A stretch of 44,509 nucleotides of DNA from Escherichia phage JSSK01. Under the pieces are notes generated by a model, which did not search any database, was not told the DNA's origin, and was given only the letters and a program-made list of their open reading frames with translations. Below, piece after piece: positions 165-43,111 of the stretch. The stretch lies in sequence record OQ442786, one strand, 5' to 3'. A program made the position numbers and the translations under genes. The number at the start of each line of letters is the position of its first letter. Position 1 is the first letter of the stretch.

Positions 165-193
165 TTGACACCTAAGACTAATCAGACGATACT
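165..193 (+). promoter_or_regulatory. sigma70-like promoter TTGACA-17-GATACT
   Basis: consensus -35 hexamer, 17 bp spacer, 4/6 -10 hexamer. Confidence 0.45.
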
Positions 194-234
194 TAAATCA
201 CCTCCTGTTCCATCCCTCTGCTCTCCAGTTTTAT

Positions 235-265
235 CCCGGCCCTGACCCAGCCGGGATTTTTTTTA
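235..265 (+). terminator. strong rho-independent terminator (CCCGGC/GCCGGG stem plus T8)
   Basis: 6-bp GC stem, 9-nt loop, run of 8 T. Confidence 0.7.
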
Positions 266-286
266 TCTGTTTTCTGTAATGACTAG

Positions 287-315
287 TTGACTATTATCCT
301 CGACCCTATTATATT
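287..315 (+). promoter_or_regulatory. early promoter TTGACT-17-TATATT with AACGAGA leader box
   Basis: near-consensus hexamers with 17 bp spacer; leader shares ATCGA-AACGAGA box with promoters at ~40039 and ~41735. Confidence 0.55.
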
Positions 316-349
316 TACTTCATCGACAACGAGAACGGAGTAGAGAGAA

Positions 350-6044: not shown

Positions 6045-6054
6045 GTTCATCTAT

Positions 6055-6076
6055 AGCCCCGAAAGGGGCTTTCTTA
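6055..6076 (+). terminator. hairpin AGCCCC-GAAA-GGGGCT with short T-run (attenuator)
   Basis: read from sequence. Confidence 0.35.
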
Positions 6077-6080
6077 TAGT

Positions 6081-7157
6081 ATGCTATTAACTTTAGCACC
6101 GCAGGGTTTATCTATGAGCTTACTTACATCCCTAATCAGCCACCAGATTTGGCTGCAACGCACCGCATCCGGTGAGGTGAAAGACCTAGCACCGTTCATT
6201 CAGGAGATGCGGGACGAAATAAAACGGCAGGTGCTGTTATTCGGCGACGACGGTCGCTCCACACGGCGACTGAATAAACTGTTACGCGACCTTGAAGAAG
6301 CACTGGCGGGACTTACCGGTGACTGGCAAACAAAGCTGACAGAAGACCTTAAGGAGCTGGCGACGTATGAGGCTGAGTGGAACGTAAAGACACTTACCAC
6401 CAACGTTAACGCGGAATTTGTTACACCTACCGCCGAGCAGGTGTGGGCCGCTGCCGAGTTTCAACCTCTGTCGCTAAGTGACAAGCCCGTTGACTTCACC
6501 AAGCTGATGTCAGGCTGGGGTGAAGCGGAGGTCGCGCGCCTTGTAACTGGCGTTAAGATGGGCTTTGTGCAAGGCCAAACCACACGGCAGATTGTTAAAG
6601 AAGTAGTTGGTAAAGGCGGCCTGGCTGACGTATCAGAGAAACACGCTGCTACAGTAATCCGCACCGCGCTGTCCCACGTGTCCAACGAAGCCCGTAATGA
6701 GACGTACCGCCAGAACGACGACATTATCGAGAAATATGAGTGGGTGTCTACTCTTGATTCTAGGACCTCAGCCGTTTGCAAGGCCAGAGATGGGATGACG
6801 TGGGAAATCGGTAAGGGTCCGATGCCTCCGGCCCATTTTGGGTGCAGAAGTACCACTGCGCCTGTAATCAGTTCGGAGTTCTACTTCCTCGATAAAGGCG
6901 CAAAACGAGCGGCTAAGGGTGCGGACGGAGGTACTCAGGTAAGCGCAGACACCACTTACTACGAGTTCCTGAAACAACAACCGGCATGGTTTCAGGACCA
7001 GGCTCTAGGCCCGGTGCGGGGTAAGATTTTCCGTAACAGCGGTATATCGCCGGAAGAGTTTCGCGTAATATCTGTAGATGGTTTCGGGAATCCGCTCACG
7101 CTTAAGCAGATGGCGGAACTCGATAAACGTGTTGCTGATTATCTGAAAGGGGAATAA
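6081..7157 (+). CDS. head morphogenesis protein (Mu F / SPP1 gp7-like)
   Basis: motif LDSRTSAVCKARDG...PPAHFGCRS resembles the conserved D-R...DG...P-H-x-CR signature of the Mu F family; follows portal. Confidence 0.7.
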   Translation: MLLTLAPQGLSMSLLTSLISHQIWLQRTASGEVKDLAPFIQEMRDEIKRQVLLFGDDGRSTRRLNKLLRDLEEALAGLTGDWQTKLTEDLKELATYEAEWNVKTLTTNVNAEFVTPTAEQVWAAAEFQPLSLSDKPVDFTKLMSGWGEAEVARLVTGVKMGFVQGQTTRQIVKEVVGKGGLADVSEKHAATVIRTALSHVSNEARNETYRQNDDIIEKYEWVSTLDSRTSAVCKARDGMTWEIGKGPMPPAHFGCRSTTAPVISSEFYFLDKGAKRAAKGADGGTQVSADTTYYEFLKQQPAWFQDQALGPVRGKIFRNSGISPEEFRVISVDGFGNPLTLKQMAELDKRVADYLKGE

Positions 7158-7643: not shown

Positions 7644-7707
7644 AATGCCTGTGATTATTCCAGTTATTCCACCAAATTGTAAATGTAGGAATAAACTATT
7701 CGAATAG

Positions 7708-7736
7708 TTGACTTTTCACTAAAAATGTGCTAAGCT
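7708..7736 (+). promoter_or_regulatory. promoter TTGACT-17-TGcTAAGCT overlapped by 12-bp palindrome CTATTCGAATAG
   Basis: consensus -35, extended -10 TG, weak -10 hexamer; perfect palindrome at ~7696-7707. Confidence 0.4.
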
Positions 7737-29885: not shown

Positions 29886-30173
29886 CTAACTATAATAGCT
29901 CGCTATTAGGGTGTCAACCTGTTTAAACGAACCGACGACAAAAACATTCGCACCACGTTTACGCATCCGCTCGTGCTCGCGTAACTGGTGCGGGTCAGGC
30001 TTCGTGTTTTCGTCTTTCTTAACCTCGACGAACCAGACGATGCCGCCTGGGAGAATTGCCAGCAGGTCGGGAGCACCCGAACGTCCTTCGTAGGAGAGCT
30101 TACGAACGAGGCCCCCCAGGGCCTCGAATCGGTCTTTTGCGTATTTCTGTATTTTGCCCTCAGGAGTACTCAT
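29886..30173 (-). CDS. VRR-NUC domain nuclease
   Basis: GAPDLLAILPGGIVWFVEVKK matches the VRR-NUC signature (PD...EVK). Confidence 0.65.
   Translation of the reverse strand: MSTPEGKIQKYAKDRFEALGGLVRKLSYEGRSGAPDLLAILPGGIVWFVEVKKDENTKPDPHQLREHERMRKRGANVFVVGSFKQVDTLIASYYS
29889..29917 (-). promoter_or_regulatory. replication-module promoter cassette copy 1 (TTGACA-17-TATAGT)
   Basis: plus-strand text AACTATAATAGC...CTATT...GTGTCAAC; three near-identical copies. Confidence 0.55.
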
Positions 30174-32606: not shown

Positions 32607-33233
32607 TTAGCGGCGGCGACGTTCGCGGCGCGGTGCTTCATCTTCTTCGTCGTCTTCCAGGTCATTGACGCTCGCAGCGACTTTAGAACCGCCGAACGCT
32701 TTGCCTTCACCGACGTACTTAATCGCCAGCAGGTTAACCCCGAGAACTTTATATTTCTGGCTGAACCAGATTTCGACGCTTACGTTAGCGACACAGCCAC
32801 TGTAAACCTGTTCGCCTTCAATCTGTTCGCCGTCTACGTTGAAGTCCTGCTCCACCTGAGTCTCACCTTTTTTAGAGGTTACAATCAGCGGCTGCTTCTG
32901 CGCCTTCGCTTTGAAGTAGAAGCCTTCTGGGAAGTCTTCAAACGGGTTATCACGCTCAGCAATGTCTTTAATCGCGCATTTATCCATGTGCTTACCTTCG
33001 CCGTAGTTGGACTTCATCCATTTCTCGGCAGCAGCTGCGCCTAACGCTTCCTCAACCACAGCGTAAACAGTGTCGTAGAGTGCATCGATTTGAGCGTGGT
33101 CAGGCGGCAGGATGATAGTCGCGCTATACTGGCCTTTAGTGATGGAGCCATCATCGTTTTCACGGTCTTTTTCTCGTTCGAATACGTTAACCCATGCAGT
33201 GTTTACTTTACGCAGATTCAGTTTAATTCCCAT
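32607..33233 (-). CDS. single-stranded DNA-binding protein (gp2.5-like / DUF2815-like, putative)
   Basis: 208 aa, acidic DLEDDEEDE C-terminal tail; between PD-(D/E)XK nuclease and DNA polymerase. Confidence 0.45.
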   Translation of the reverse strand: MGIKLNLRKVNTAWVNVFEREKDRENDDGSITKGQYSATIILPPDHAQIDALYDTVYAVVEEALGAAAAEKWMKSNYGEGKHMDKCAIKDIAERDNPFEDFPEGFYFKAKAQKQPLIVTSKKGETQVEQDFNVDGEQIEGEQVYSGCVANVSVEIWFSQKYKVLGVNLLAIKYVGEGKAFGGSKVAASVNDLEDDEEDEAPRRERRRR

Positions 33234-33287
33234 CTTAATTTCTCGCTTTTCAGTTTACTCCTGGAAGCTGCCAGGCCAGTGATTAGA

Positions 33288-33316
33288 ACTATAATAGCTA
33301 ACTATTCAGGTGTCAA
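33288..33316 (-). promoter_or_regulatory. replication-module promoter cassette copy 2 (TTGACA-17-TATAGT)
   Basis: plus-strand text GAACTATAATAGCTAACTATTCAGGTGTCAACAC. Confidence 0.55.
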
Positions 33317-36379: not shown

Positions 36380-36407
36380 ATCTGCCCCTCTCGTTTGGTA
36401 TGGGCTA

Positions 36408-36436
36408 ACTATAATAGCGAACTATTCACATGTCAA
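36408..36436 (-). promoter_or_regulatory. replication-module promoter cassette copy 3 (TTGACA-17-TATAGT)
   Basis: plus-strand text TAACTATAATAGCGAACTATTCACATGTCAATGG. Confidence 0.55.
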
Positions 36437-36500
36437 TGGGCTTTTCTAAAATAATTAATATGGTACTATTCACATATCAACTGACTAAGGAGTAACTGAC

Positions 36501-36716
36501 ATGCAACCATCTGAACTAGGCATCCGTGTAGAGCAACGCCGTAAAGAACTCGGTATCTCCCAGCGCCGTCTGGCTGTTCTGGCCGGCGTTTCCCAGGGCG
36601 CGATTAACCAGCTTGCACTCGGGGTAACTCAGGACGTACGCCCGGCAACGCTGTTTAAACTGGCGGAAGTGCTGGAAGTAGACGCCAAGTGGCTGGCGCT
36701 AGGTGAAGGGGCGTAA
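36501..36716 (+). CDS. XRE-family HTH transcriptional regulator (Cro/CI-like)
   Basis: ISQRRLAVLAGVSQGAINQL is a classic HTH_XRE signature; AAGGAG SD; stop codon lies in terminator loop. Confidence 0.7.
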   Translation: MQPSELGIRVEQRRKELGISQRRLAVLAGVSQGAINQLALGVTQDVRPATLFKLAEVLEVDAKWLALGEGA

Positions 36717-36731
36717 CGCCCCTTTCTTTTT
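36708..36731 (+). terminator. rho-independent terminator (GGGGCG-TAA-CGCCCC, TTTCTTTTT)
   Basis: read from sequence. Confidence 0.6.
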
Positions 36732-38956: not shown

Positions 38957-39150
38957 TTCTTTTTCTCCGCACGTTCTAAGGCTTCCTGCATACGGCGCAT
39001 TGCGCGGTTCATCTTTACCGGCGCGAAGAAATCGGCGCCGTGTTTCTGTCGGCGTAGCTGTGGAACTATTAACTTTGTCATTGTATAATCCTTATGCTTA
39101 CTTTGATGGTTTGTACTTTAGCCCCGACGTTCTAGCGTTGGGGTTTCTTT

Positions 39151-39441
39151 TTACCGTTTAGCCAACCCTTCCAGCAAATTTTTATACTCTTCAAAATATT
39201 CCTCGACCAAATCATCGCCGAAATAGAAGTCGATATACTCGAGATTATCTCTTACGTTAAGCGATGCCGACATGGTGCTTAGTTGGCGTAAGCTAATTAG
39301 CTTCATTTCTGTTTCTACGCAGAAAGGCCGGTAGGTATCAAGATGGCAAGAGATATTGAAGCATAAAGCGAACTCTCCTGCCACGGAGTGAACCATATAC
39401 ACTTCGTTTTCTGCTTTATTGTGGAAAATTACGCCTTTCAT
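39151..39441 (-). CDS. hypothetical protein (96 aa)
   Basis: track ORF, ATGA-coupled to upstream HTH gene. Confidence 0.45.
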   Translation of the reverse strand: MKGVIFHNKAENEVYMVHSVAGEFALCFNISCHLDTYRPFCVETEMKLISLRQLSTMSASLNVRDNLEYIDFYFGDDLVEEYFEEYKNLLEGLAKR

Positions 39442-39620
39442 TTCACGTTCTCCTTAATCCATGCTTCGACTTTATTACGGTCAAATGTTCCCGGTAAACG
39501 GCGGCCCATAATCTTAATACAGCAGTCAGGGAATTTGCCGCTGCGCAACCAGTTATTAATTGTCTGACGTGTCACCCCGATACGTTCAGCTACTTCATTC
39601 TGCGTCATATAATGCGACAT
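39438..39620 (-). CDS. small HTH DNA-binding protein (AlpA/excisionase-like fold)
   Basis: start reassigned to ATG 39620 (AGGAGAT SD); MTQNEVAERIGVTRQTINNWLRSGKFP is HTH-like; first gene of minus-strand operon. Confidence 0.55.
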   Translation of the reverse strand: MSHYMTQNEVAERIGVTRQTINNWLRSGKFPDCCIKIMGRRLPGTFDRNKVEAWIKENVK

Positions 39621-39651
39621 TTTTATATCTCCTGTTTGTTTGGTGAAACTG

Positions 39652-39680
39652 AGTATAGGATAGCGGGAATGTAAAAGCAA
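39652..39680 (-). promoter_or_regulatory. candidate leftward promoter TTGCTT-17-TATACT
   Basis: read on minus strand upstream of HTH gene. Confidence 0.4.
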
Positions 39681-39717
39681 CCAATCTCTGTAATATTTAA
39701 TCTTTACAAAAATGTTA

Positions 39718-39747
39718 TTGAAAGTTCTTGACACATGTTTGTATAAT
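39718..39747 (+). promoter_or_regulatory. candidate rightward promoter TTGAAA-18-TATAAT
   Basis: perfect -10 hexamer; adjacent TTGACA is only 8 bp from the -10. Confidence 0.4.
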
Positions 39748-39753
39748 GGTTTT

Positions 39754-39973
39754 GGGACTTGTATATATTACGGAGTTGACGAACCCTCCCCGAGGGATTC
39801 GTCAACCCCTCCCAGACAGCTGAGATGCTTGCCTTGGGGTTTAAGGATAAGTGTATCTAAATCTCATTTAAAGAAGTAACCCGCTGAAATATCTACTGTT
39901 TCTTAATGTGCCGTAGATTCGCAACCGTAAAAATGTAACGATTATTGGGCAGGCTTAAGCCTGCCCTTTAGTT
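39754..39973 (+). ncRNA. candidate ~215-nt non-coding transcript ending at intrinsic terminator
   Basis: no ORF longer than ~15 codons; imperfect palindrome GTTGACGAA...TTCGTCAAC; CCCTCCCCGA boxes. Confidence 0.25.
39947..39973 (+). terminator. rho-independent terminator (GGGCAGGCTT/AAGCCTGCCC perfect inverted repeat, TTTAGTT)
   Basis: 10-bp perfect inverted repeat followed by T-rich run. Confidence 0.6.
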
Positions 39974-40038
39974 ACCAAGTAATAAGAATAAAGGCACAAC
40001 CCTCCCCGAAGAATCACAACGGCAACGTAACTATTCTC

Positions 40039-40067
40039 TTGCACACCCCAACATAATAGGTTACTAT
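40039..40067 (+). promoter_or_regulatory. early promoter TTGCAC-17-TACTATTCA with AACGAGACA leader box
   Basis: near-identical to promoter at ~41735. Confidence 0.55.
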
Positions 40068-40101
40068 TCACTTATCGAAACGAGACATAAGGAATTTAGA
40101 G

Positions 40102-40320
40102 ATGAACAAAGCGACCGCAAGCGTAGTTTCCGCAATCAAAGAAGTTTACGGCATCGATATCTCAGAGCGCGTAATTATCGGGAACAAGCGCAACTTCTTT
40201 ACGTTCGACACCGACGGAATGGATGAAAATGATTTTGTTAACGTACAACGTTTCGCTAACGGTAAAGGACTTCGTAACGAGCCAGCGGGTTACAAGAAAT
40301 TTGCTATCTACTTTAAATAA
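40102..40320 (+). CDS. hypothetical early protein (72 aa)
   Basis: AAGGAA SD; first ORF of right-end early block. Confidence 0.5.
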   Translation: MNKATASVVSAIKEVYGIDISERVIIGNKRNFFTFDTDGMDENDFVNVQRFANGKGLRNEPAGYKKFAIYFK

Positions 40321-40329
40321 GACAGAGGA

Positions 40330-40524
40330 GTGATGGTTATGTTTAAGAAGGGTCAGTTGGTTAAAACAAAACGCGGCGGACAGTACGTAATAGTTACCCA
40401 GAATGAGGATGAATATAGTACCGCTGTAGACGTATGGGGTCTTGTACGAAAGAAACATGGTTACGCTTTCAGAGATAATTTAACACTCATCGGCAACAAT
40501 TTTAAATTCAAAGGGGCGAAGTGA
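40330..40524 (+). CDS. hypothetical early protein (64 aa)
   Basis: track ORF with GAGGAG SD. Confidence 0.5.
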   Translation: MMVMFKKGQLVKTKRGGQYVIVTQNEDEYSTAVDVWGLVRKKHGYAFRDNLTLIGNNFKFKGAK

Positions 40525-40709
40525 TGGAAGAATTAATTTACGACGTATACGTAGGAGGAAGATTTAGTTATTCAACAAGAAGCAGGGGAGAGGCATTTAA
40601 CCATTGCTATGCGTTAACAAAGTTAGGTTTCAACGCGGAATTTAAATCCAGAACGGCATCGAATCATGATGCTCGTGCCGACGACTCTGAGGGAGGTTGC
40701 CGTGAATAA
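40521..40709 (+). CDS. hypothetical early protein (62 aa)
   Basis: ATGA-coupled. Confidence 0.45.
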   Translation: MMEELIYDVYVGGRFSYSTRSRGEAFNHCYALTKLGFNAEFKSRTASNHDARADDSEGGCRE

Positions 40710-40731
40710 TATTTCAATTGTGGAGGTTGGT

Positions 40732-40926
40732 ATGAGTCCGTATAACGAATTCCGCTTACGCCGTCTGATTGGCGGTCTGCGCGCCGCCGAGTTTGGTGTT
40801 GAATGCTGGGAAAAGGCGAAGTACACCCCGTTGAAGTCGTGGCATTTGGCTCATGCTAAGGAGGTAGCACAGTACCGTGAGTACAAGTTAAACAGTTTTC
40901 TTAAGCACCACGGGGTTGAGTTATGA
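40732..40926 (+). CDS. hypothetical early protein (64 aa)
   Basis: track ORF 40666-40926; start moved to ATG 40732 with GGAGG SD. Confidence 0.45.
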   Translation: MSPYNEFRLRRLIGGLRAAEFGVECWEKAKYTPLKSWHLAHAKEVAQYREYKLNSFLKHHGVEL

Positions 40927-41078
40927 GAATTCGAATAACTGACCGCAGGCTTATAGATTTCGGTATCTCGGTAGGTGATGTTTTTCTGGCGTTCAGCAGC
41001 AACCATTATGGTTTTATGATTGAGTACAAAGGGTCGTTATTGTTCGTGTATCGGGATGAATGCGAGGTTCTGGTATGA
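40923..41078 (+). CDS. hypothetical small protein (51 aa)
   Basis: not in track; ATGA coupling. Confidence 0.35.
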   Translation: MRIRITDRRLIDFGISVGDVFLAFSSNHYGFMIEYKGSLLFVYRDECEVLV

Positions 41079-41218
41079 GGGAAGCATTCGAACGGTGGGC
41101 CATCGTCGAGGGTCTGCCGGTTAACAAGGGTTCAAAGAAAGAGTACCTGAACGTTAAGACACGTCTCGCGTGGCGGGCGTGGAAAGCTGGTGTTCAAACT
41201 GCGATGAATACGAGGTGA
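41075..41218 (+). CDS. hypothetical small protein (47 aa)
   Basis: not in track; ATGA coupling. Confidence 0.35.
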   Translation: MREAFERWAIVEGLPVNKGSKKEYLNVKTRLAWRAWKAGVQTAMNTR

Positions 41219-41221
41219 GAT

Positions 41222-41422
41222 ATGGGTGAGTGGATTAAGTGTAGTGAGATGCTGCCGGGCAACGGTAGTACAGATAAAGAATTCCTGGTGTATGAAACGT
41301 TAAATAACGCAGTTCAACACGATTATTACATCGTTCCTGATGACGGGAGAAAGCCTTTCTGGAATCACTACGATAAGTACGTGACTCACTGGATGCCGTT
41401 ACCTGAGCCGCCGGAAGTGTGA
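41222..41422 (+). CDS. DUF551-like protein
   Basis: EWIKCSEMLP near N-terminus and VTHWMPLPEPP at C-terminus match the DUF551 signature. Confidence 0.6.
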   Translation: MGEWIKCSEMLPGNGSTDKEFLVYETLNNAVQHDYYIVPDDGRKPFWNHYDKYVTHWMPLPEPPEV

Positions 41423-41454
41423 TGTTCAATAGTTTGGGATTTTACTGAGTGACT

Positions 41455-41510
41455 TACGCTGCTACACAGCAGCGTACAACTTTAACTTAGTGTCGTCAAA
41501 AGGCGACACT
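41455..41510 (+). promoter_or_regulatory. two tandem hairpins without U-tract (possible RNase III processing or regulatory sites)
   Basis: ACGCTGCT-ACAC-AGCAGCGT (8-bp perfect stem) and AGTGTCG-N8-CGACACT (7-bp stem) in a 135-nt intergenic gap. Confidence 0.35.
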
Positions 41511-41556
41511 TTCACCAAACGCAACAATCGAAGTGACTATTGCAGGAGACGCAACA

Positions 41557-41727
41557 ATGAAACTGAATGACATCGTAACCTGGACCGGTAGAAACGGAGA
41601 AAAGCGATTCGGGCTTATTGTTGCGTCAGACGGCAACAAGTACCGTGTTATGCGATGGCGTCAGTGGGCACGACGCCCGAGGTACTACTGGATTCGTGGC
41701 GAACGATTATCGTTAAAACACCAATAA
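41557..41727 (+). CDS. hypothetical protein (56 aa)
   Basis: track ORF 41533-41727; ATG 41557 has AGGAG SD. Confidence 0.45.
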   Translation: MKLNDIVTWTGRNGEKRFGLIVASDGNKYRVMRWRQWARRPRYYWIRGERLSLKHQ

Positions 41728-41734
41728 AATTTAC

Positions 41735-41763
41735 TTGCACACCGGGATAGAATAGGCTACTAT
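41735..41763 (+). promoter_or_regulatory. early promoter TTGCAC-17-TACTATTCA with AACGAGACA leader box
   Basis: near-identical to promoter at ~40039. Confidence 0.55.
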
Positions 41764-41795
41764 TCATTTACACAAACGAGACAGAGGAAAACGAA

Positions 41796-41981
41796 ATGTT
41801 AGAAGTTAAAGTTACAAAAAGAGACAGTGAACTGACTAAAGGCATCTTCAAAGTAGGAACCGTTATAGACCTGGATTTAGCTGACATGGTTGTGTACCAC
41901 GGTGGGATTGAGTGGAACGTGGCGCGGACCGACAACGGCTTCAAGTTACCAGGAAGTGAGACTCACTTTGCAGCAGTTTGA
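41796..41981 (+). CDS. hypothetical early protein (61 aa)
   Basis: GAGGAAAA SD; first ORF after promoter. Confidence 0.5.
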   Translation: MLEVKVTKRDSELTKGIFKVGTVIDLDLADMVVYHGGIEWNVARTDNGFKLPGSETHFAAV

Positions 41982-42085
41982 AATATGGTTCCGGAGCCGG
42001 TTTGGGTTCACCCCGGCCCGGAAAGACAATGGCTACGCTGAACCAGAGGTTCAGCGGATGTGGGTACGGTGGAAGGAGAAACAGC

Positions 42086-42412
42086 GTGAACAGTAAAAAC
42101 GAAGTATTCGAATACCTGATTGACCGGCTACGGCAGCAGGTAGGTAGCAACCAGTGCGAAGACCTCGCGTATGAGGTGCATTCGCCCAATAATCAGTTAC
42201 GTGATGCTTCGGCGCAGATTAAGGAGTTGCATATGGCGCTGGTCAAAGCTACCGGTGACGCGGAGGCGTACAAACTTATTCGCGAACAGGAGCAATCCGG
42301 TTGCCGTAAAGAAGACGCGCAGGAATGCGAGCACGATTGGAGGGTTAAAACATACCCCTGGAGTAATGAAACCTATGAATACTGCCCTTTATGCCGGGAG
42401 GTGCACCAATGA
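42086..42412 (+). CDS. Cys-rich (zinc-binding-like) protein; start uncertain
   Basis: track ORF 41978-42412 begins at TTG; in-frame GTG 42086 has strong AAGGAG SD, ATG 42029 has none; C-terminal CRKEDAQECEHD...YCPLC. Confidence 0.4.
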   Translation: MNSKNEVFEYLIDRLRQQVGSNQCEDLAYEVHSPNNQLRDASAQIKELHMALVKATGDAEAYKLIREQEQSGCRKEDAQECEHDWRVKTYPWSNETYEYCPLCREVHQ

Positions 42413-42612
42413 CATCGCTCCTTTTCATCTGGGTATTGTCAGCGGGTCAGATGCACCTGGCGGCAACAGAAACGTTTTATTCTATGGAGGCGTGCCAGTC
42501 AGCGGCACGCGCCGCAGAGAACGCGCACTTCTTGTTTCAGGGCGACAAGCCTAACGATTCAGAGGTACGCGCTATCTGCTCACCTAAGCGACTTGGTAAA
42601 CAGGAGAAGTGA
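42409..42612 (+). CDS. small protein with N-terminal signal-peptide-like segment
   Basis: track ORF 42391-42612; ATG 42409 overlaps upstream stop; hydrophobic MTSLLFIWVLSAGQMHLAA then polar domain with two Cys. Confidence 0.45.
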   Translation: MTSLLFIWVLSAGQMHLAATETFYSMEACQSAARAAENAHFLFQGDKPNDSEVRAICSPKRLGKQEK

Positions 42613-42878
42613 TTATGGTACAGAGATATTTATTACAAGGCGGTTTAATAGGGCCGCACGACGATGGTGACTGGGTTGGTTACGAAGACTACGCGGAACT
42701 TGAGCGTAAGTTCAATGAACTCAGGACATGGCGTACGCAGATGCTCAATGCCGCTTTCGACTTTTTAGCGTGGGCAGAAAAAGCGGAAGCCGAGTTACAG
42801 AAATACAAAGACCAGTTCCCTGATTACGTCGAGTGCGCGAACTGTGGGTCAGTTACACATGTGGAAGGAGCGCAGTGA
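42609..42878 (+). CDS. hypothetical protein, paralog A of tandem pair
   Basis: shares G-[DE]-[WY]-V-x-YEDYA-[EK]-LE-x-K block with the next ORF; track start is GTG, ATG at 42615 possible. Confidence 0.5.
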   Translation: MIMVQRYLLQGGLIGPHDDGDWVGYEDYAELERKFNELRTWRTQMLNAAFDFLAWAEKAEAELQKYKDQFPDYVECANCGSVTHVEGAQ

Positions 42879-42880
42879 TT

Positions 42881-43111
42881 ATGGTTATTCGTAAAGGCTT
42901 TTATGAAGATGGTAATTTCGATAGTAAAGTAAATGGGGAGTACGTAAGCTACGAAGACTACGCGAAACTCGAAGCCAAACTTCTGGAAATAAAAGCAGCA
43001 GCCAGTTGTCTTGTGCGAGAAGCGAGTAAGGTGTATAGCGATTATAGTGACGTTATAGCGCCTGAGTTTGTAGACCAGCAAACCATATACGAACTAGGTA
43101 TTCTGCTATGA
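42881..43111 (+). CDS. hypothetical protein, paralog B of tandem pair
   Basis: track ORF 42833-43111; start moved to ATG 42881 just after upstream stop. Confidence 0.5.
   Translation: MVIRKGFYEDGNFDSKVNGEYVSYEDYAKLEAKLLEIKAAASCLVREASKVYSDYSDVIAPEFVDQQTIYELGILL

What the first reader, a model, noticed from the sequence alone, without database searches (positions are those of the whole stretch)
40039..41795. Second promoter family TTGC(A/G)C-N17-TACTATTCA with a conserved AACGAGA leader box
Promoters at ~40039-40067 and ~41735-41763, and on the minus strand at ~16815-16843, share the -35 TTGC(A/G)C, a 17-bp spacer and the extended -10 TACTATTCA. Their leaders, and that of the left-end promoter at ~287-315, carry ATCGA-AACGAGA(C/A)A about 20 nt upstream of the start codon. 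The box may be a conserved initial-transcribed sequence, processing site or translational control element, and it ties the accessory operon to early-gene regulation.
Basis: seen in the sequence. Interest (0 to 1): 0.5.

Follow-up and report, generated by a model that had tools for sequence, protein, structure and literature searches.

The report
Phage promoters sharing a Cro-like operator
The three look-alike promoters are real, but their shared "extended -10" is half of an 18-bp palindrome that overlaps eight promoters of this lytic E. coli phage and is most likely the binding site of the phage's own small 434-Cro-like repressor; the AACGAGA leader box is a conserved, unstructured start of four mRNAs whose function is not known.

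Summary
The window is a complete, circularly permuted genome of a Kagunavirus, a lytic K1-specific E. coli siphophage.

**Observation.** AACGAGA lies in the leaders of two of them and of the left-end promoter. It is absent from the minus-strand leader, and a missed copy lies at 36389-36395(-).

**What the "-10 extension" is.** TACTATTCA is one arm of an 18-bp quasi-palindrome, ATAATAG-N4-CTATTCA (core AATAG-N4-CTATT). It is the most over-represented spaced palindrome in the genome. It overlaps eight sigma70-type promoters, in both orientations and at three positions (over the -10, in the spacer, over the -35). Two copies flank a 71-aa gene for an XRE-family helix-turn-helix (HTH) protein, closest to phage 434 Cro.

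**Link to that protein.** The motif sits at syntenic promoters in Jerseyvirus. Its flank and core change along with this protein's recognition helix, not with the second HTH protein (Pfam HTH_17).

**Best model (inferred).** Host-RNAP promoters are repressed by an autoregulated Cro-like protein.

**The box.** It lies 11-12 nt after the -10, at about +5 to +12. It is unstructured, moderately conserved and part of promoter-leader cassettes placed before variable genes.

**Prior work.** The repeat was already published from a PHIRE (phage regulatory-element finder) scan as a "phage-RNAP promoter"; no RNAP gene exists. Overall this is ordinary biology with a corrected interpretation.

The parts
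40039..40070 (+). Class A promoter P40039: -35 TTGCAC 40039-40044, 17-bp spacer, -10 TACTAT 40062-40067. The 18-bp operator ATAATAGGTTACTATTCA at 40053-40070 overlaps the -10.
   Evidence: conserved in more than 15 unique homologues
40079..40085 (+). AACGAGA leader box, 11 nt after the -10 and 16 nt before the ATG at 40102.
41735..41766 (+). Class A promoter P41735: -35 TTGCAC 41735-41740, -10 TACTAT 41758-41763, operator AGAATAGGCTACTATTCA 41749-41766. It drives 41796-41981, a Pfam Gp54 family gene.
41775..41781 (+). AACGAGA leader box, 11 nt after the -10 and 14 nt before the ATG at 41796.
16812..16843 (-). Class A promoter P16843: -35 TTGCGC 16843-16838, -10 TACTAT 16820-16815, operator 16829-16812. 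Its leader has ACACCAACAAT instead of AACGAGA. It drives a superinfection-immunity gene, 16784-16593.
280..315 (+). Left-end promoter P287: -35 TTGACT 287-292, -10 TATATT 310-315. The operator TGACTAGTTGACTATTAT at 280-297 overlaps the -35.
   Evidence: invariant operator and leader in 11 homologues including Jersey
328..334 (+). AACGAGA leader box, 12 nt after the -10 and 15 nt before the ATG at 350.
36408..36436 (-). Class B promoter P36436: -35 TTGACA 36436-36431, -10 TATAGT 36413-36408. The operator at 36411-36428 lies in the spacer and -10.
36389..36395 (-).
36455..36472 (+). Weaker operator copy TTAATATGGTACTATTCA over the -10 (TACTAT 36464-36469, preceded by TGg) of the promoter of the XRE (434-Cro-like HTH) gene. 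It lies 44 bp centre-to-centre from the operator at 36411-36428.
36501..36716 (+). 71-aa XRE/HTH_3 protein, closest solved relative phage 434 Cro. It is the proposed operator-binding repressor. The gene is monocistronic, with a terminator at 36705-36725.
33288..33316 (-). Class B promoter P33316 (TTGACA-N17-TATAGT) with its operator at 33291-33308. It drives the ssDNA-binding protein gene.
29889..29917 (-). Class B promoter P29918 (TTGACA-N17-TATAGT) with its operator at 29892-29909. Its leader carries ACACCAACAAT.
39438..39620 (-). 60-aa HTH_17 (excisionase-like) protein. It is the rival candidate binder, and its own upstream region has no operator copy.
7701..7736 (+). Weak, non-conserved operator-like site CGAATAGTTGACTTTTCA over the -35 of TTGACT-N17-TAAGCT. 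The promoter is conserved in relatives but the operator-like half is not.

Best explanation
The three promoters are host (sigma70) promoters of a lytic Kagunavirus. Each is overlapped by an 18-bp quasi-palindromic operator, ATAATAG-N4-CTATTCA, with a 14-bp core AATAG-N4-CTATT.

The same operator overlaps five further promoters:
- the left-end promoter;
- three strong leftward promoters for replication genes;
- the promoter of a 71-aa XRE (434-Cro-like) helix-turn-helix gene.

**Proposed mechanism.** A dimer of this Cro-like protein binds the operators. Every operator covers a -10, a spacer or a -35, so binding should exclude RNA polymerase. This would give autoregulated, genome-wide damping or shut-off of early, middle and accessory transcription.

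**Shown:** the motif, its enrichment, its positions, its conservation, and its co-variation with the XRE protein.
**Inferred:** the binding itself, the sign of regulation (repression), and the timing.

**The AACGAGA box.** It is the start (about +5 to +12) of an A/C/purine-rich, unstructured 5' leader. It travels with some of these promoters as a promoter-leader cassette placed in front of interchangeable genes. It most likely supports efficient promoter escape and/or ribosome loading rather than acting as a specific switch. This part is weakly supported.
For: **Motif reality**
- The 18-mer gives 10 matches against 0.85 expected, and the 14-bp core 12 against 1.08; no shuffle of 100 reached either count.
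- AATAG-N4-CTATT is the top spaced palindrome found de novo, with 6 exact copies here and 4 in Jersey.

**Operator-like behaviour**
- The site occurs in both orientations relative to transcription.
- It takes three positions: over the -10 (class A), in the spacer/-10 of TTGACA-N17-TATAGT (class B), and over the -35 (left end).
- The non-sigma70 positions (the G and C of AATAG/CTATT) are invariant in 57 unique homologues, while the spacer and the central 4 bp vary.

**Regulator**
- Two copies flank the XRE gene in its divergent control region. The copy over its own promoter has one imperfect half-site in both Kagunavirus and Jersey.
- The protein is HTH_3. Its best solved match is 434 Cro, also 71 aa, full length, E = 2e-6.
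- From established knowledge, 434 operators are also 14 bp with outer half-sites and a non-contacted centre.

**Co-variation**
- The Kagunavirus helix VSQGAINQ goes with CTATTCA arms in the window and in L124-L127 (XRE 77-80% identical, helix identical).
- The Jerseyvirus helix VSQSLITH goes with xTAATAG arms on both sides, in Jersey and SETP3.
- St162 (XRE 40% identical, helix VTQSAISH) has no exact AATAG-N4-CTATT. It has WTAC-N4-CTAAT instead, 7 copies against 0.66 expected, with two copies flanking its XRE gene.
- St162 has no HTH_17 gene.
- L124 combines a Jersey-type HTH_17 helix with a Kagunavirus-type XRE helix and Kagunavirus-type operators.

**Host RNAP**
- None of the ORFs of 700 aa or more is an RNA polymerase.
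- The Jersey record annotates the orthologous sites as sigma70 promoters.

**Box**
- In every exact class A copy it lies 11 nt after the -10 (21 of 57 unique homologues). About 11 more carry one substitution, 10 of them A<->G.
- It lies 12 nt after the -10 at 310 and 36413.
- Leaders fold at -1.6, -1.2 and 0 kcal/mol, no better than shuffles. There is no Rfam match.
- The genes after the cassette differ between relatives.
Against: - No binding, transcription-start or expression data exist for this phage. Repression is inferred from position only.
- Kagunavirus and Jerseyvirus share the AATAG core although their XRE proteins are only 49% identical. The rival HTH_17 protein is 82% identical, so conservation of the core alone fits HTH_17 at least as well.
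- The discrimination rests on one flank position, one recombinant (L124) and one distant genome (St162). The St162 motif was defined post hoc and is only weakly palindromic.
- Class A promoters are weak by consensus (3/6 and 4/6). An activating role cannot be excluded on sequence alone.
- If the left-end promoter also feeds the structural genes, a simple 'shut everything off' model is incomplete.
- For the box, conservation could be inheritance by cassette duplication or recombination, without any function of its own.
Confidence: 0.6

Rival explanations
1. The palindrome is bound by a different phage protein rather than the XRE protein. Candidates are the 60-aa HTH_17 (excisionase-like) early protein (39438-39620, minus strand) and the Rha/ANT protein (14406-15077, minus strand).
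For: - HTH_17 is 82% identical between this phage and Jersey, matching the shared AATAG core better than the 49% identity of XRE.
- HTH_17 is restricted to the Kagunavirus and Jerseyvirus genomes that carry the exact motif, and it is absent from St162, which lacks the exact motif.
- A Kagunavirus RNA-seq study lists an HTH gene among four early genes (PMC12645636). Mapping that gene to HTH_17 is my inference.
- Rha/ANT carries DNA-binding-type domains.
Against: - No operator copy lies next to the HTH_17 gene. Its upstream promoter, TTGCTT-N17-TATACT, has none.
- L124 has a Jersey-type HTH_17 recognition helix but Kagunavirus-type operators.
- St162 keeps a promoter-associated repeat system, including two copies at its XRE gene, without any HTH_17.
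- From general knowledge, small Xis/AlpA-like winged helices usually bind as monomers or to direct repeats, not to 14-bp dyads.
Confidence: 0.13
2. No dedicated binding protein exists. The shared 18-mer reflects common descent of duplicated promoter cassettes, with AT-rich -10-like arms (TATTAT on both strands) that appear palindromic.
For: - Both arms contain -10-like hexamers, and in class B the arm supplies part of the real -10.
- Promoter-leader cassettes are clearly paralogous and are moved around by recombination.
Against: - The invariant positions include the G and C of AATAG/CTATT, which are not sigma70 -10 consensus positions.
- The site keeps its sequence while shifting 6 and 21 bp relative to the hexamers and while flipping orientation.
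- The central 4 bp and the promoter spacer drift freely while the arms stay fixed across genera.
- Lineage-specific arm variants are consistent across all sites within a genome.
Confidence: 0.12
3. The AACGAGA box, together with the promoter-embedded element, forms a Q/AlpA-type loading site (a DNA element in the promoter plus a pause element in the initial transcribed region). Alternatively, it is some other specific RNA or DNA signal for antitermination, processing or translational control.
For: - The architecture resembles Q-dependent promoters: a conserved DNA element between the -35 and -10, plus a conserved element at a fixed position in the initial transcribed region (PMC9371919).
- The box has a fixed offset from the -10.
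- Terminators separate the operons.
- The left-end leader is invariant in 11 homologues, although the spacer and the downstream gene vary.
Against: - AACGAG lacks the T at position 6 that defines a -10-like pause element. The known elements are CACGAT and AACGAT, and mutating that T abolishes AlpA function.
- No other A2/T6 hexamer is conserved in the leaders.
- No Q-like protein was recognised among the proteins scanned.
- The box tolerates A<->G changes.
- The leaders have no predicted structure.
- Many promoters with the operator lack the box, and class A promoters occur with at least five different leaders.
Confidence: 0.1
4. The 20-bp repeats are promoters for a phage-encoded RNA polymerase. 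This is the reading published for phage fBC-Eco01 from PHIRE output.
For: PHIRE detects seven copies with the consensus tgAATAGTa-ccTATTat-T, and the paper assigns them to a phage RNAP (PMC9825357; record annotation).
Against: - None of the ORFs of 700 aa or more is an RNAP (endosialidase tailspike, tail protein, tape measure, primase-helicase, PolA). Neither an RNAP nor a sigma-factor family reached threshold among the ~40 proteins scanned.
- The motif occurs in both orientations and at three positions relative to good sigma70 hexamers.
Confidence: 0.02

Closest known systems
Phage 434 Cro (and lambda/P22 Cro) with the OR/OL operators
   Same: - A 71-aa, single-domain XRE helix-turn-helix protein; best solved match over the full length.
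- A 14-bp dyad operator with outer half-sites and a variable centre.
- Operators overlap early promoters.
- Two operators lie in the divergent control region next to the regulator gene, and the regulator's own promoter carries the weaker site.
   Different: - There is no partner CI repressor, integrase or lysogeny module (strictly lytic subfamily).
- The operators are single sites spread over eight promoters around the genome, not tripartite OR/OL clusters.
- The recognition helix (SQGAINQ against KQQSIQL) and the half-site (AATAG against ACAA) differ.
- Binding is untested.
Global repressors of IncP-1 plasmids (KorA/KorB regulon)
   Same: One small mobile-element-encoded HTH repressor has palindromic operators at many promoters, placed at different positions relative to the -10 and -35. 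This gives a burst of expression on entry followed by autoregulated damping (comparison from general knowledge; see also PMC4889941, listed).
   Different: It is a plasmid system, not a phage. The protein families are different. KorB also acts at a distance and co-operates with other repressors.
PHIRE 'phage promoters' of Kagunavirus fBC-Eco01 and VB_EcoS-Golestan
   Same: They are the same sequence element: consensus tgAATAGTa-ccTATTat-T, seven copies (PMC9825357; PMC7203180; record annotation).
   Different: The papers report it descriptively and assign it to a phage RNA polymerase that the genome does not encode. No palindrome, operator or regulator link was made in the papers I could read.
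Q / AlpA antitermination promoters (binding element in the promoter plus a -10-like pause element in the initial transcribed region)
   Same: A conserved DNA element lies inside the promoter and a second conserved element lies at a fixed position in the first ~12 transcribed bases (PMC9371919).
   Different: The box lacks the defining A2/T6 -10-like signature. The promoter element is a dyad and occupies variable positions. No Q-like protein was found.
Mobile promoter cassettes of T4-type phages (PeSL) and start-associated sequences of Cluster K mycobacteriophages
   Same: Short, conserved regulatory cassettes (promoter and/or leader) are repeated through a phage genome in front of interchangeable small genes and mark mosaic junctions (comparison from memory; Cluster K paper PMC3203893, listed).
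   Different: PeSLs include a stem-loop, and start-associated sequences sit at a fixed distance from the start codon. Here the leader is unstructured and the box is fixed relative to the promoter.

Membership tests
Host sigma70-dependent promoter | -35-like and -10-like hexamers separated by 16-18 bp, with A at position 2 and T at position 6 of the -10 | tested here: met
   Class A: TTGC(A/G)C-N17-TACTAT, matching 3/6 and 4/6 of consensus with A2 and T6 present. Class B: TTGACA-N17-TATAGT, 11/12. Left end: TTGACT-N17-TATATT, 10/12.
Host sigma70-dependent promoter | Correct orientation and distance upstream of a gene with a Shine-Dalgarno sequence; conserved in relatives | tested here: met
   All eight promoters face a gene 28-90 nt downstream. 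Orthologous sites exist in 36 related loci. Four orthologues are annotated as sigma70 promoters in the Jersey record.
Host sigma70-dependent promoter | Mapped transcription start, rifampicin-sensitive | not testable with these tools
   I found no transcription-start data for Guernseyvirinae. The only RNA-seq paper found gives gene-level time classes.
Cro/CI-type (XRE HTH) repressor-operator system | Phage-encoded XRE helix-turn-helix protein | tested here: met
   Pfam HTH_3, E = 2.3e-12. PHROG transcriptional regulator/repressor families. 434 Cro, E = 2e-6 over residues 6-68.
Cro/CI-type (XRE HTH) repressor-operator system | Inverted-repeat operators of 14-18 bp overlapping core promoter elements | tested here: met
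   AATAG-N4-CTATT within an 18-bp quasi-palindrome, at eight promoters over the -10, spacer or -35.
Cro/CI-type (XRE HTH) repressor-operator system | Operators adjacent to the regulator gene (autoregulation) | tested here: met
   Two copies at 36411-36428 and 36455-36472, flanking the divergent promoters of the XRE gene. The same arrangement occurs in Jersey and, with the variant motif, in St162.
Cro/CI-type (XRE HTH) repressor-operator system | Operator sequence co-varies with the regulator's recognition helix across lineages | tested here: inconclusive
   Three helix types go with three arm types, and L124 separates XRE from HTH_17. There are few independent lineages, and the St162 motif was defined post hoc.
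Cro/CI-type (XRE HTH) repressor-operator system | Demonstrated sequence-specific binding and repression | not testable with these tools
   This needs gel-shift/footprinting and reporter assays.
Phage-RNA-polymerase promoter (PHIRE interpretation) | Phage encodes its own RNA polymerase or sigma factor | tested here: not met
   All ORFs of 700 aa or more were assigned to other functions or had no RNAP match. Neither an RNAP nor a sigma-factor family reached threshold among the ~40 proteins scanned.
Phage-RNA-polymerase promoter (PHIRE interpretation) | Motif in a single orientation at a fixed distance from the transcription start | tested here: not met
   Both orientations and three registers relative to the sigma70 hexamers.
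Q/AlpA-type antitermination promoter | -10-like element (A at position 2, T at position 6) in the initial transcribed region | tested here: not met
   The box is AACGAG(A), with G at position 6. No other conserved A2/T6 hexamer occurs in the leaders. The requirement is documented in PMC9371919.
Q/AlpA-type antitermination promoter | Q-like or AlpA-like antiterminator protein encoded nearby | tested here: inconclusive
   No Pfam or PHROG hit to Q families among the scanned proteins. Many small ORFs have no annotation, and not all were scanned.
Structured cis-regulatory RNA (riboswitch, RNase III site, nut-like hairpin) | Stable or conserved secondary structure including the box | tested here: not met
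   Minimum free energies from -1.6 to -6 kcal/mol, z-scores from -0.6 to +2.0. No Rfam family reached the gathering threshold.

The most novel reading that the evidence does not exclude
The AACGAGA box, held at +5 to +12 in four operons and invariant in the left-end leader across two genera, may be a specific signal rather than a generic leader. A phage factor (for example the early HTH_17 protein or an unannotated small protein) would read it on the DNA or the nascent RNA at the promoter-proximal stage. It would work together with the promoter-embedded dyad as a non-canonical loading site for processive transcription or 5'-end-dependent control, without a sigma70 -10-like pause element.
Probability: 0.08. 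Interest if true: 0.6.

Novelty: new member of a known kind. Interest (0 to 1): 0.3.

Why it matters
Guernseyvirinae (Kagunavirus, Jerseyvirus) are among the commonest lytic phages proposed for E. coli and Salmonella therapy and used for phage engineering. Their transcription programme is nevertheless uncharacterised.

If the model holds, one 71-aa Cro-like protein and one 18-bp site control essentially all early, replication and accessory promoters.
- This gives a simple handle for engineering, through payload expression level and timing and through orthogonal repressor-operator pairs from the three lineages.
- It corrects a published annotation ('phage RNA-polymerase promoters').

The promoter-leader cassettes also mark where accessory genes, including an immunity gene and a defence-trigger homologue, are swapped between phages. 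None of this would surprise a phage transcription specialist.

Tried and rejected
1. **Box as a sigma70-dependent pause element (Q/AlpA architecture).** Rejected: there is no T at position 6 and no conserved A2/T6 hexamer.
2. **Box as part of an RNA structure or a known RNA family.** Rejected: the leaders are unstructured and there is no Rfam hit.
3. **Box or Shine-Dalgarno region as the target of a phage small RNA.** A conserved promoter-terminator unit at 165-262 carries an anti-SD-like CACCUCCU sequence. Its duplex energies with the eight leaders (-9 to -17.5 kcal/mol) are no better than with 137 background translation-initiation regions (median -14.1). Dropped as an explanation of the box.
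4. **Phage RNAP promoters.** Rejected.
5. **Host transcription-factor site.** Not tested directly. It is unlikely, because Jersey and St162 both infect Salmonella yet carry different motifs, and I know of no E. coli regulator with an AATAG-N4-CTATT site (from memory).
6. **Looking for the Kagunavirus motif in St162.** Neither AATAG-N4-CTATT nor ATTAG-N4-CTAAT with up to 2 mismatches is enriched. Only the post hoc WTAC-N4-CTAAT is.
7. **Wider homologues of the XRE protein in unrelated contexts.** The search returned only Guernseyvirinae relatives of 77% identity or more with the same helix. No independent context was available for the operator-helix test.
8. **Literature.** The Jerseyvirinae description paper is not in the library. 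Sequence-string searches found nothing relevant. The supplement of the K1B4 RNA-seq paper listed only host genes, so I could not verify which HTH gene is 'early'.
9. **Position-weight-matrix scan.** It is circular for the eight training sites. The two extra sites (7701, 6073) score below the best shuffle and are not conserved as operators.


Full report
**What the window is.** The best DNA matches of 39000-43000 are E. coli Kagunavirus phages (Guernseyvirinae) at 92-97% identity, with weaker matches to Salmonella Jerseyvirus phages. The tailspike is a K1 endosialidase. The endolysin gene runs off the right end of the window and finishes at its left end. The 44.5-kb window is therefore a complete, circularly permuted genome of a lytic siphophage.

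**The observation.**
- TTGCAC-N17-TACTATTCA lies at 40039-40070(+) and 41735-41766(+). TTGCGC-N17-TACTATTCA lies at 16843-16812(-). That is 3 exact matches against none in 100 shuffles.
- AACGAGA lies at 40079, 41775 and 328, starting 21-23 nt before the start codons.
- The minus-strand leader has no AACGAGA. It has ACACCAACAAT, which it shares with the leader of another leftward promoter.
- As a word, AACGAGA is not enriched (8 found, 5.8 expected). What is non-random is its position.

**The conserved unit is a palindrome.**
- TACTATTCA is the right arm of ATAATAG-N4-CTATTCA. The 18-mer gives 10 matches with up to 3 mismatches against 0.85 expected. The 14-bp core AATAG-N4-CTATT gives 12 matches with up to 1 mismatch against 1.08 expected. 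No shuffle of 100 reached either count.
- An unbiased count of all 5+N+5 and 6+N+6 palindromes ranks AATAG-N4-CTATT first in this genome (6 exact copies) and in phage Jersey (4). Otherwise only GC-rich terminator stems appear.
- The eight good sites are all intergenic and all overlap a promoter. They fall into three arrangements:
  - Class A: the arm forms the -10 TACTAT. Sites: 40053, 41749, 16812(-), and 36455 in front of the XRE gene (the 71-aa 434-Cro-like helix-turn-helix gene described below).
  - Class B: the site fills the spacer and -10 of the near-consensus leftward promoters TTGACA-N17-TATAGT. Sites: 29892, 33291, 36411.
  - Left end: the site covers the -35 TTGACT (280-297).
- Relative to the direction of transcription the site is in opposite orientations in classes A and B. 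The dyad centre moves from about -12.5 to -18.5 to -33.5.
- A promoter element would keep its register and orientation. A binding site for a separate protein need not.

**Conservation.**
- I collected 36 related loci from IMG/VR, GenBank records and assemblies and aligned the homologues of each promoter.
- In 57 unique class A-type sequences the two arms are invariant (about 2 bits per column). The central 4 bp and the promoter spacer vary. The -35 is TTGCAC in 38, TTGCGC in 5 and TTGCAG in 4.
- Jersey (XRE protein 49% identical) has the motif at the syntenic promoters: 16955, 29241, 32928, 35810, 39908 and 42336. Four of these are annotated there as sigma70 promoters.

**Who binds it.** Three proteins with recognised DNA-binding-type domains were found, plus a weak NinH-like hit:
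- a 71-aa XRE/HTH_3 protein (36501-36716);
- a 60-aa HTH_17 excisionase-like protein (39438-39620, minus strand);
- a Rha/ANT protein (14406-15077, minus strand).

The XRE protein is the best candidate, for four reasons.
1. Two operator copies, 44 bp apart, flank its divergent control region. The copy over its own promoter has one imperfect half-site, in this phage and in Jersey.
2. Its closest solved relative is phage 434 Cro: same length, aligned end to end, E = 2e-6. From established knowledge, 434 operators are 14-bp dyads with outer half-sites and an uncontacted centre. The core found here has that geometry.
3. The arms change with its recognition helix.
   - Helix VSQGAINQ goes with CTATTCA arms, in the window and in four contigs whose XRE is only 77-80% identical but has the same helix.
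   - Helix VSQSLITH goes with xTAATAG arms on both sides, in Jersey and SETP3.
   - Helix VTQSAISH in St162 (40% identical) goes with a different promoter-associated repeat, WTAC-N4-CTAAT. It has 7 copies against 0.66 expected, two of them flanking the XRE gene.
4. HTH_17 does not track the motif.
   - St162 has no HTH_17 gene.
   - Contig L124 combines a Jersey-type HTH_17 helix with Kagunavirus-type operators.
   - The HTH_17 gene's own upstream region has no operator.

Against this, HTH_17 is more conserved between the two genera (82% against 49%), as is the AATAG core. The co-variation also rests on few lineages. I put the XRE-operator link at about 0.6.

**Direction of regulation.** Every operator overlaps a -10, a spacer or a -35, so occlusion of RNA polymerase (repression) is the economical reading. 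This would make the system a Cro-like, autoregulated damper of the left-end, replication and accessory operons. This is inference. Promoters without the site include 165-193, 39718-39747, the HTH_17 promoter near 39680(-) and 7708-7736. These would escape it.

**The PHIRE reading.** Papers on fBC-Eco01 and Golestan report seven PHIRE 'phage promoters', with the consensus tgAATAGTa-ccTATTat-T given for fBC-Eco01. The fBC-Eco01 paper assigns them to a phage RNA polymerase. No ORF of 700 aa or more is an RNA polymerase, and neither an RNAP nor a sigma-factor family reached threshold among the proteins scanned. The element is thus already described, but its published interpretation is not supported.

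**The AACGAGA box.**
- Every exact class A copy starts 11 nt after the -10 (21 of 57 unique homologues). About 11 more carry a single substitution, 10 of them A<->G.
- It starts 12 nt after the -10 at 310 and 36413. In the left-end cassette it is invariant in 11 homologues, including Jersey.
- The distance from box end to the ATG ranges from 9 to 16 nt. In many relatives the box runs straight into the Shine-Dalgarno sequence (AAACGAGAGGAGAGA).
- The leaders are essentially unstructured and match no Rfam family.
- The box is not a -10-like pause element of the Q/AlpA kind, because it lacks the essential T.
- Class A promoters occur with at least five other leaders. In some relatives homology ends right after TACTATTCA.
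- The same cassette precedes ten or more different first genes.
- My reading is that the box is the 5' part of a purine/A-C-rich open leader. It is inherited and exchanged together with the promoter, and probably favours promoter escape and/or ribosome loading. A specific signal is not excluded (about 0.1).

**Verdict.** The 'promoter family' is better described as a set of host promoters sharing an operator for a 434-Cro-like phage repressor. The leader box is conserved, but there is no evidence of a special mechanism. This is a new, uncharacterised member of a familiar kind of circuit, of moderate practical interest for a phage group used in therapy and engineering.

Noticed in passing
window 165-262 (+): A promoter (TTGACA-N17-GATACT) is followed by AAAUCACCUCCUGUUCCAUCCCUCUGCUCUCC and an intrinsic terminator (228-262), with no ORF. 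CACCUCCU matches the 3' end of 16S rRNA (anti-Shine-Dalgarno). The unit is nearly invariant in nine relatives, while the DNA upstream of it is mosaic. It is a candidate ~65-nt small RNA. Pairing with the promoter leaders was no better than background.
   Followed up: partly
window 39718-39966 (+): A near-consensus promoter (TTGAAA-N18-TATAAT, 11/12) is followed by a strong hairpin (about 39775-39806), CU-rich CCCTCCCC motifs and a terminator at 39947-39966, with no plausible ORF. Relatives carry one of two unrelated 5' domains but the same 3' domain and terminator. It is a candidate ~200-nt non-coding RNA between the HTH_17 operon and the promoter at 40039. There is no Rfam match.
   Followed up: partly
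window 33260-33275 (-), and L002 about 32880-32900: The leader of the ssDNA-binding protein gene has a hairpin, CCUGG-N6-CCAGG. In Jersey and most relatives it reads CCGGG-N-CCCGG, a compensatory double change that suggests a conserved regulatory stem-loop.
   Followed up: no
window 41796-41981 (+), and homologous cassettes in L001, L031, L038, L069, L070, L090, L098, L102, L106, L110, L123: The P41735-type promoter-leader cassette is followed by at least ten different first genes in relatives, so the mosaic junction lies at the Shine-Dalgarno sequence/start codon. In this phage the first gene belongs to Pfam PF25180 (phage antiviral trigger protein Gp54).
   Followed up: partly
window 16593-16784 (-) and 14406-15077 (-): A minus-strand island inside the structural gene block is driven by the class A promoter at 16843. 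It encodes a superinfection-immunity protein (Pfam Imm_superinfect), a phosphoesterase-like protein and a Rha/ANT antirepressor-like protein. In some relatives a different gene follows the same promoter.
   Followed up: partly
L124 (logan SRR25448517_709) 9912-13246: This contig is a natural recombinant. It combines a Jersey-type HTH_17 recognition helix (GVTRRTLNNWL), a Kagunavirus-type XRE helix (VSQGAINQLALG) and Kagunavirus-type operators (CTATTCA arms). It is useful as a natural swap experiment.
   Followed up: yes
L003 (Salmonella phage St162) 12686-12976: A ~290-bp intergenic stretch is made of G-rich GGGGAGA-like repeats (ggggagacaggggaga... gggggagaggtcttcccccc). It lies next to a copy of the St162-type repeat at 13004. 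Its nature is unknown.
   Followed up: no
window 6054-6090 (+): A terminator (6055-6070) is followed immediately by an operator-like CTTATAGTATGCTATTAA just before the head-morphogenesis gene. At the equivalent place Jersey has a minus-strand amidase gene with its own promoter, so this may be a relic of a lost cassette.
   Followed up: no
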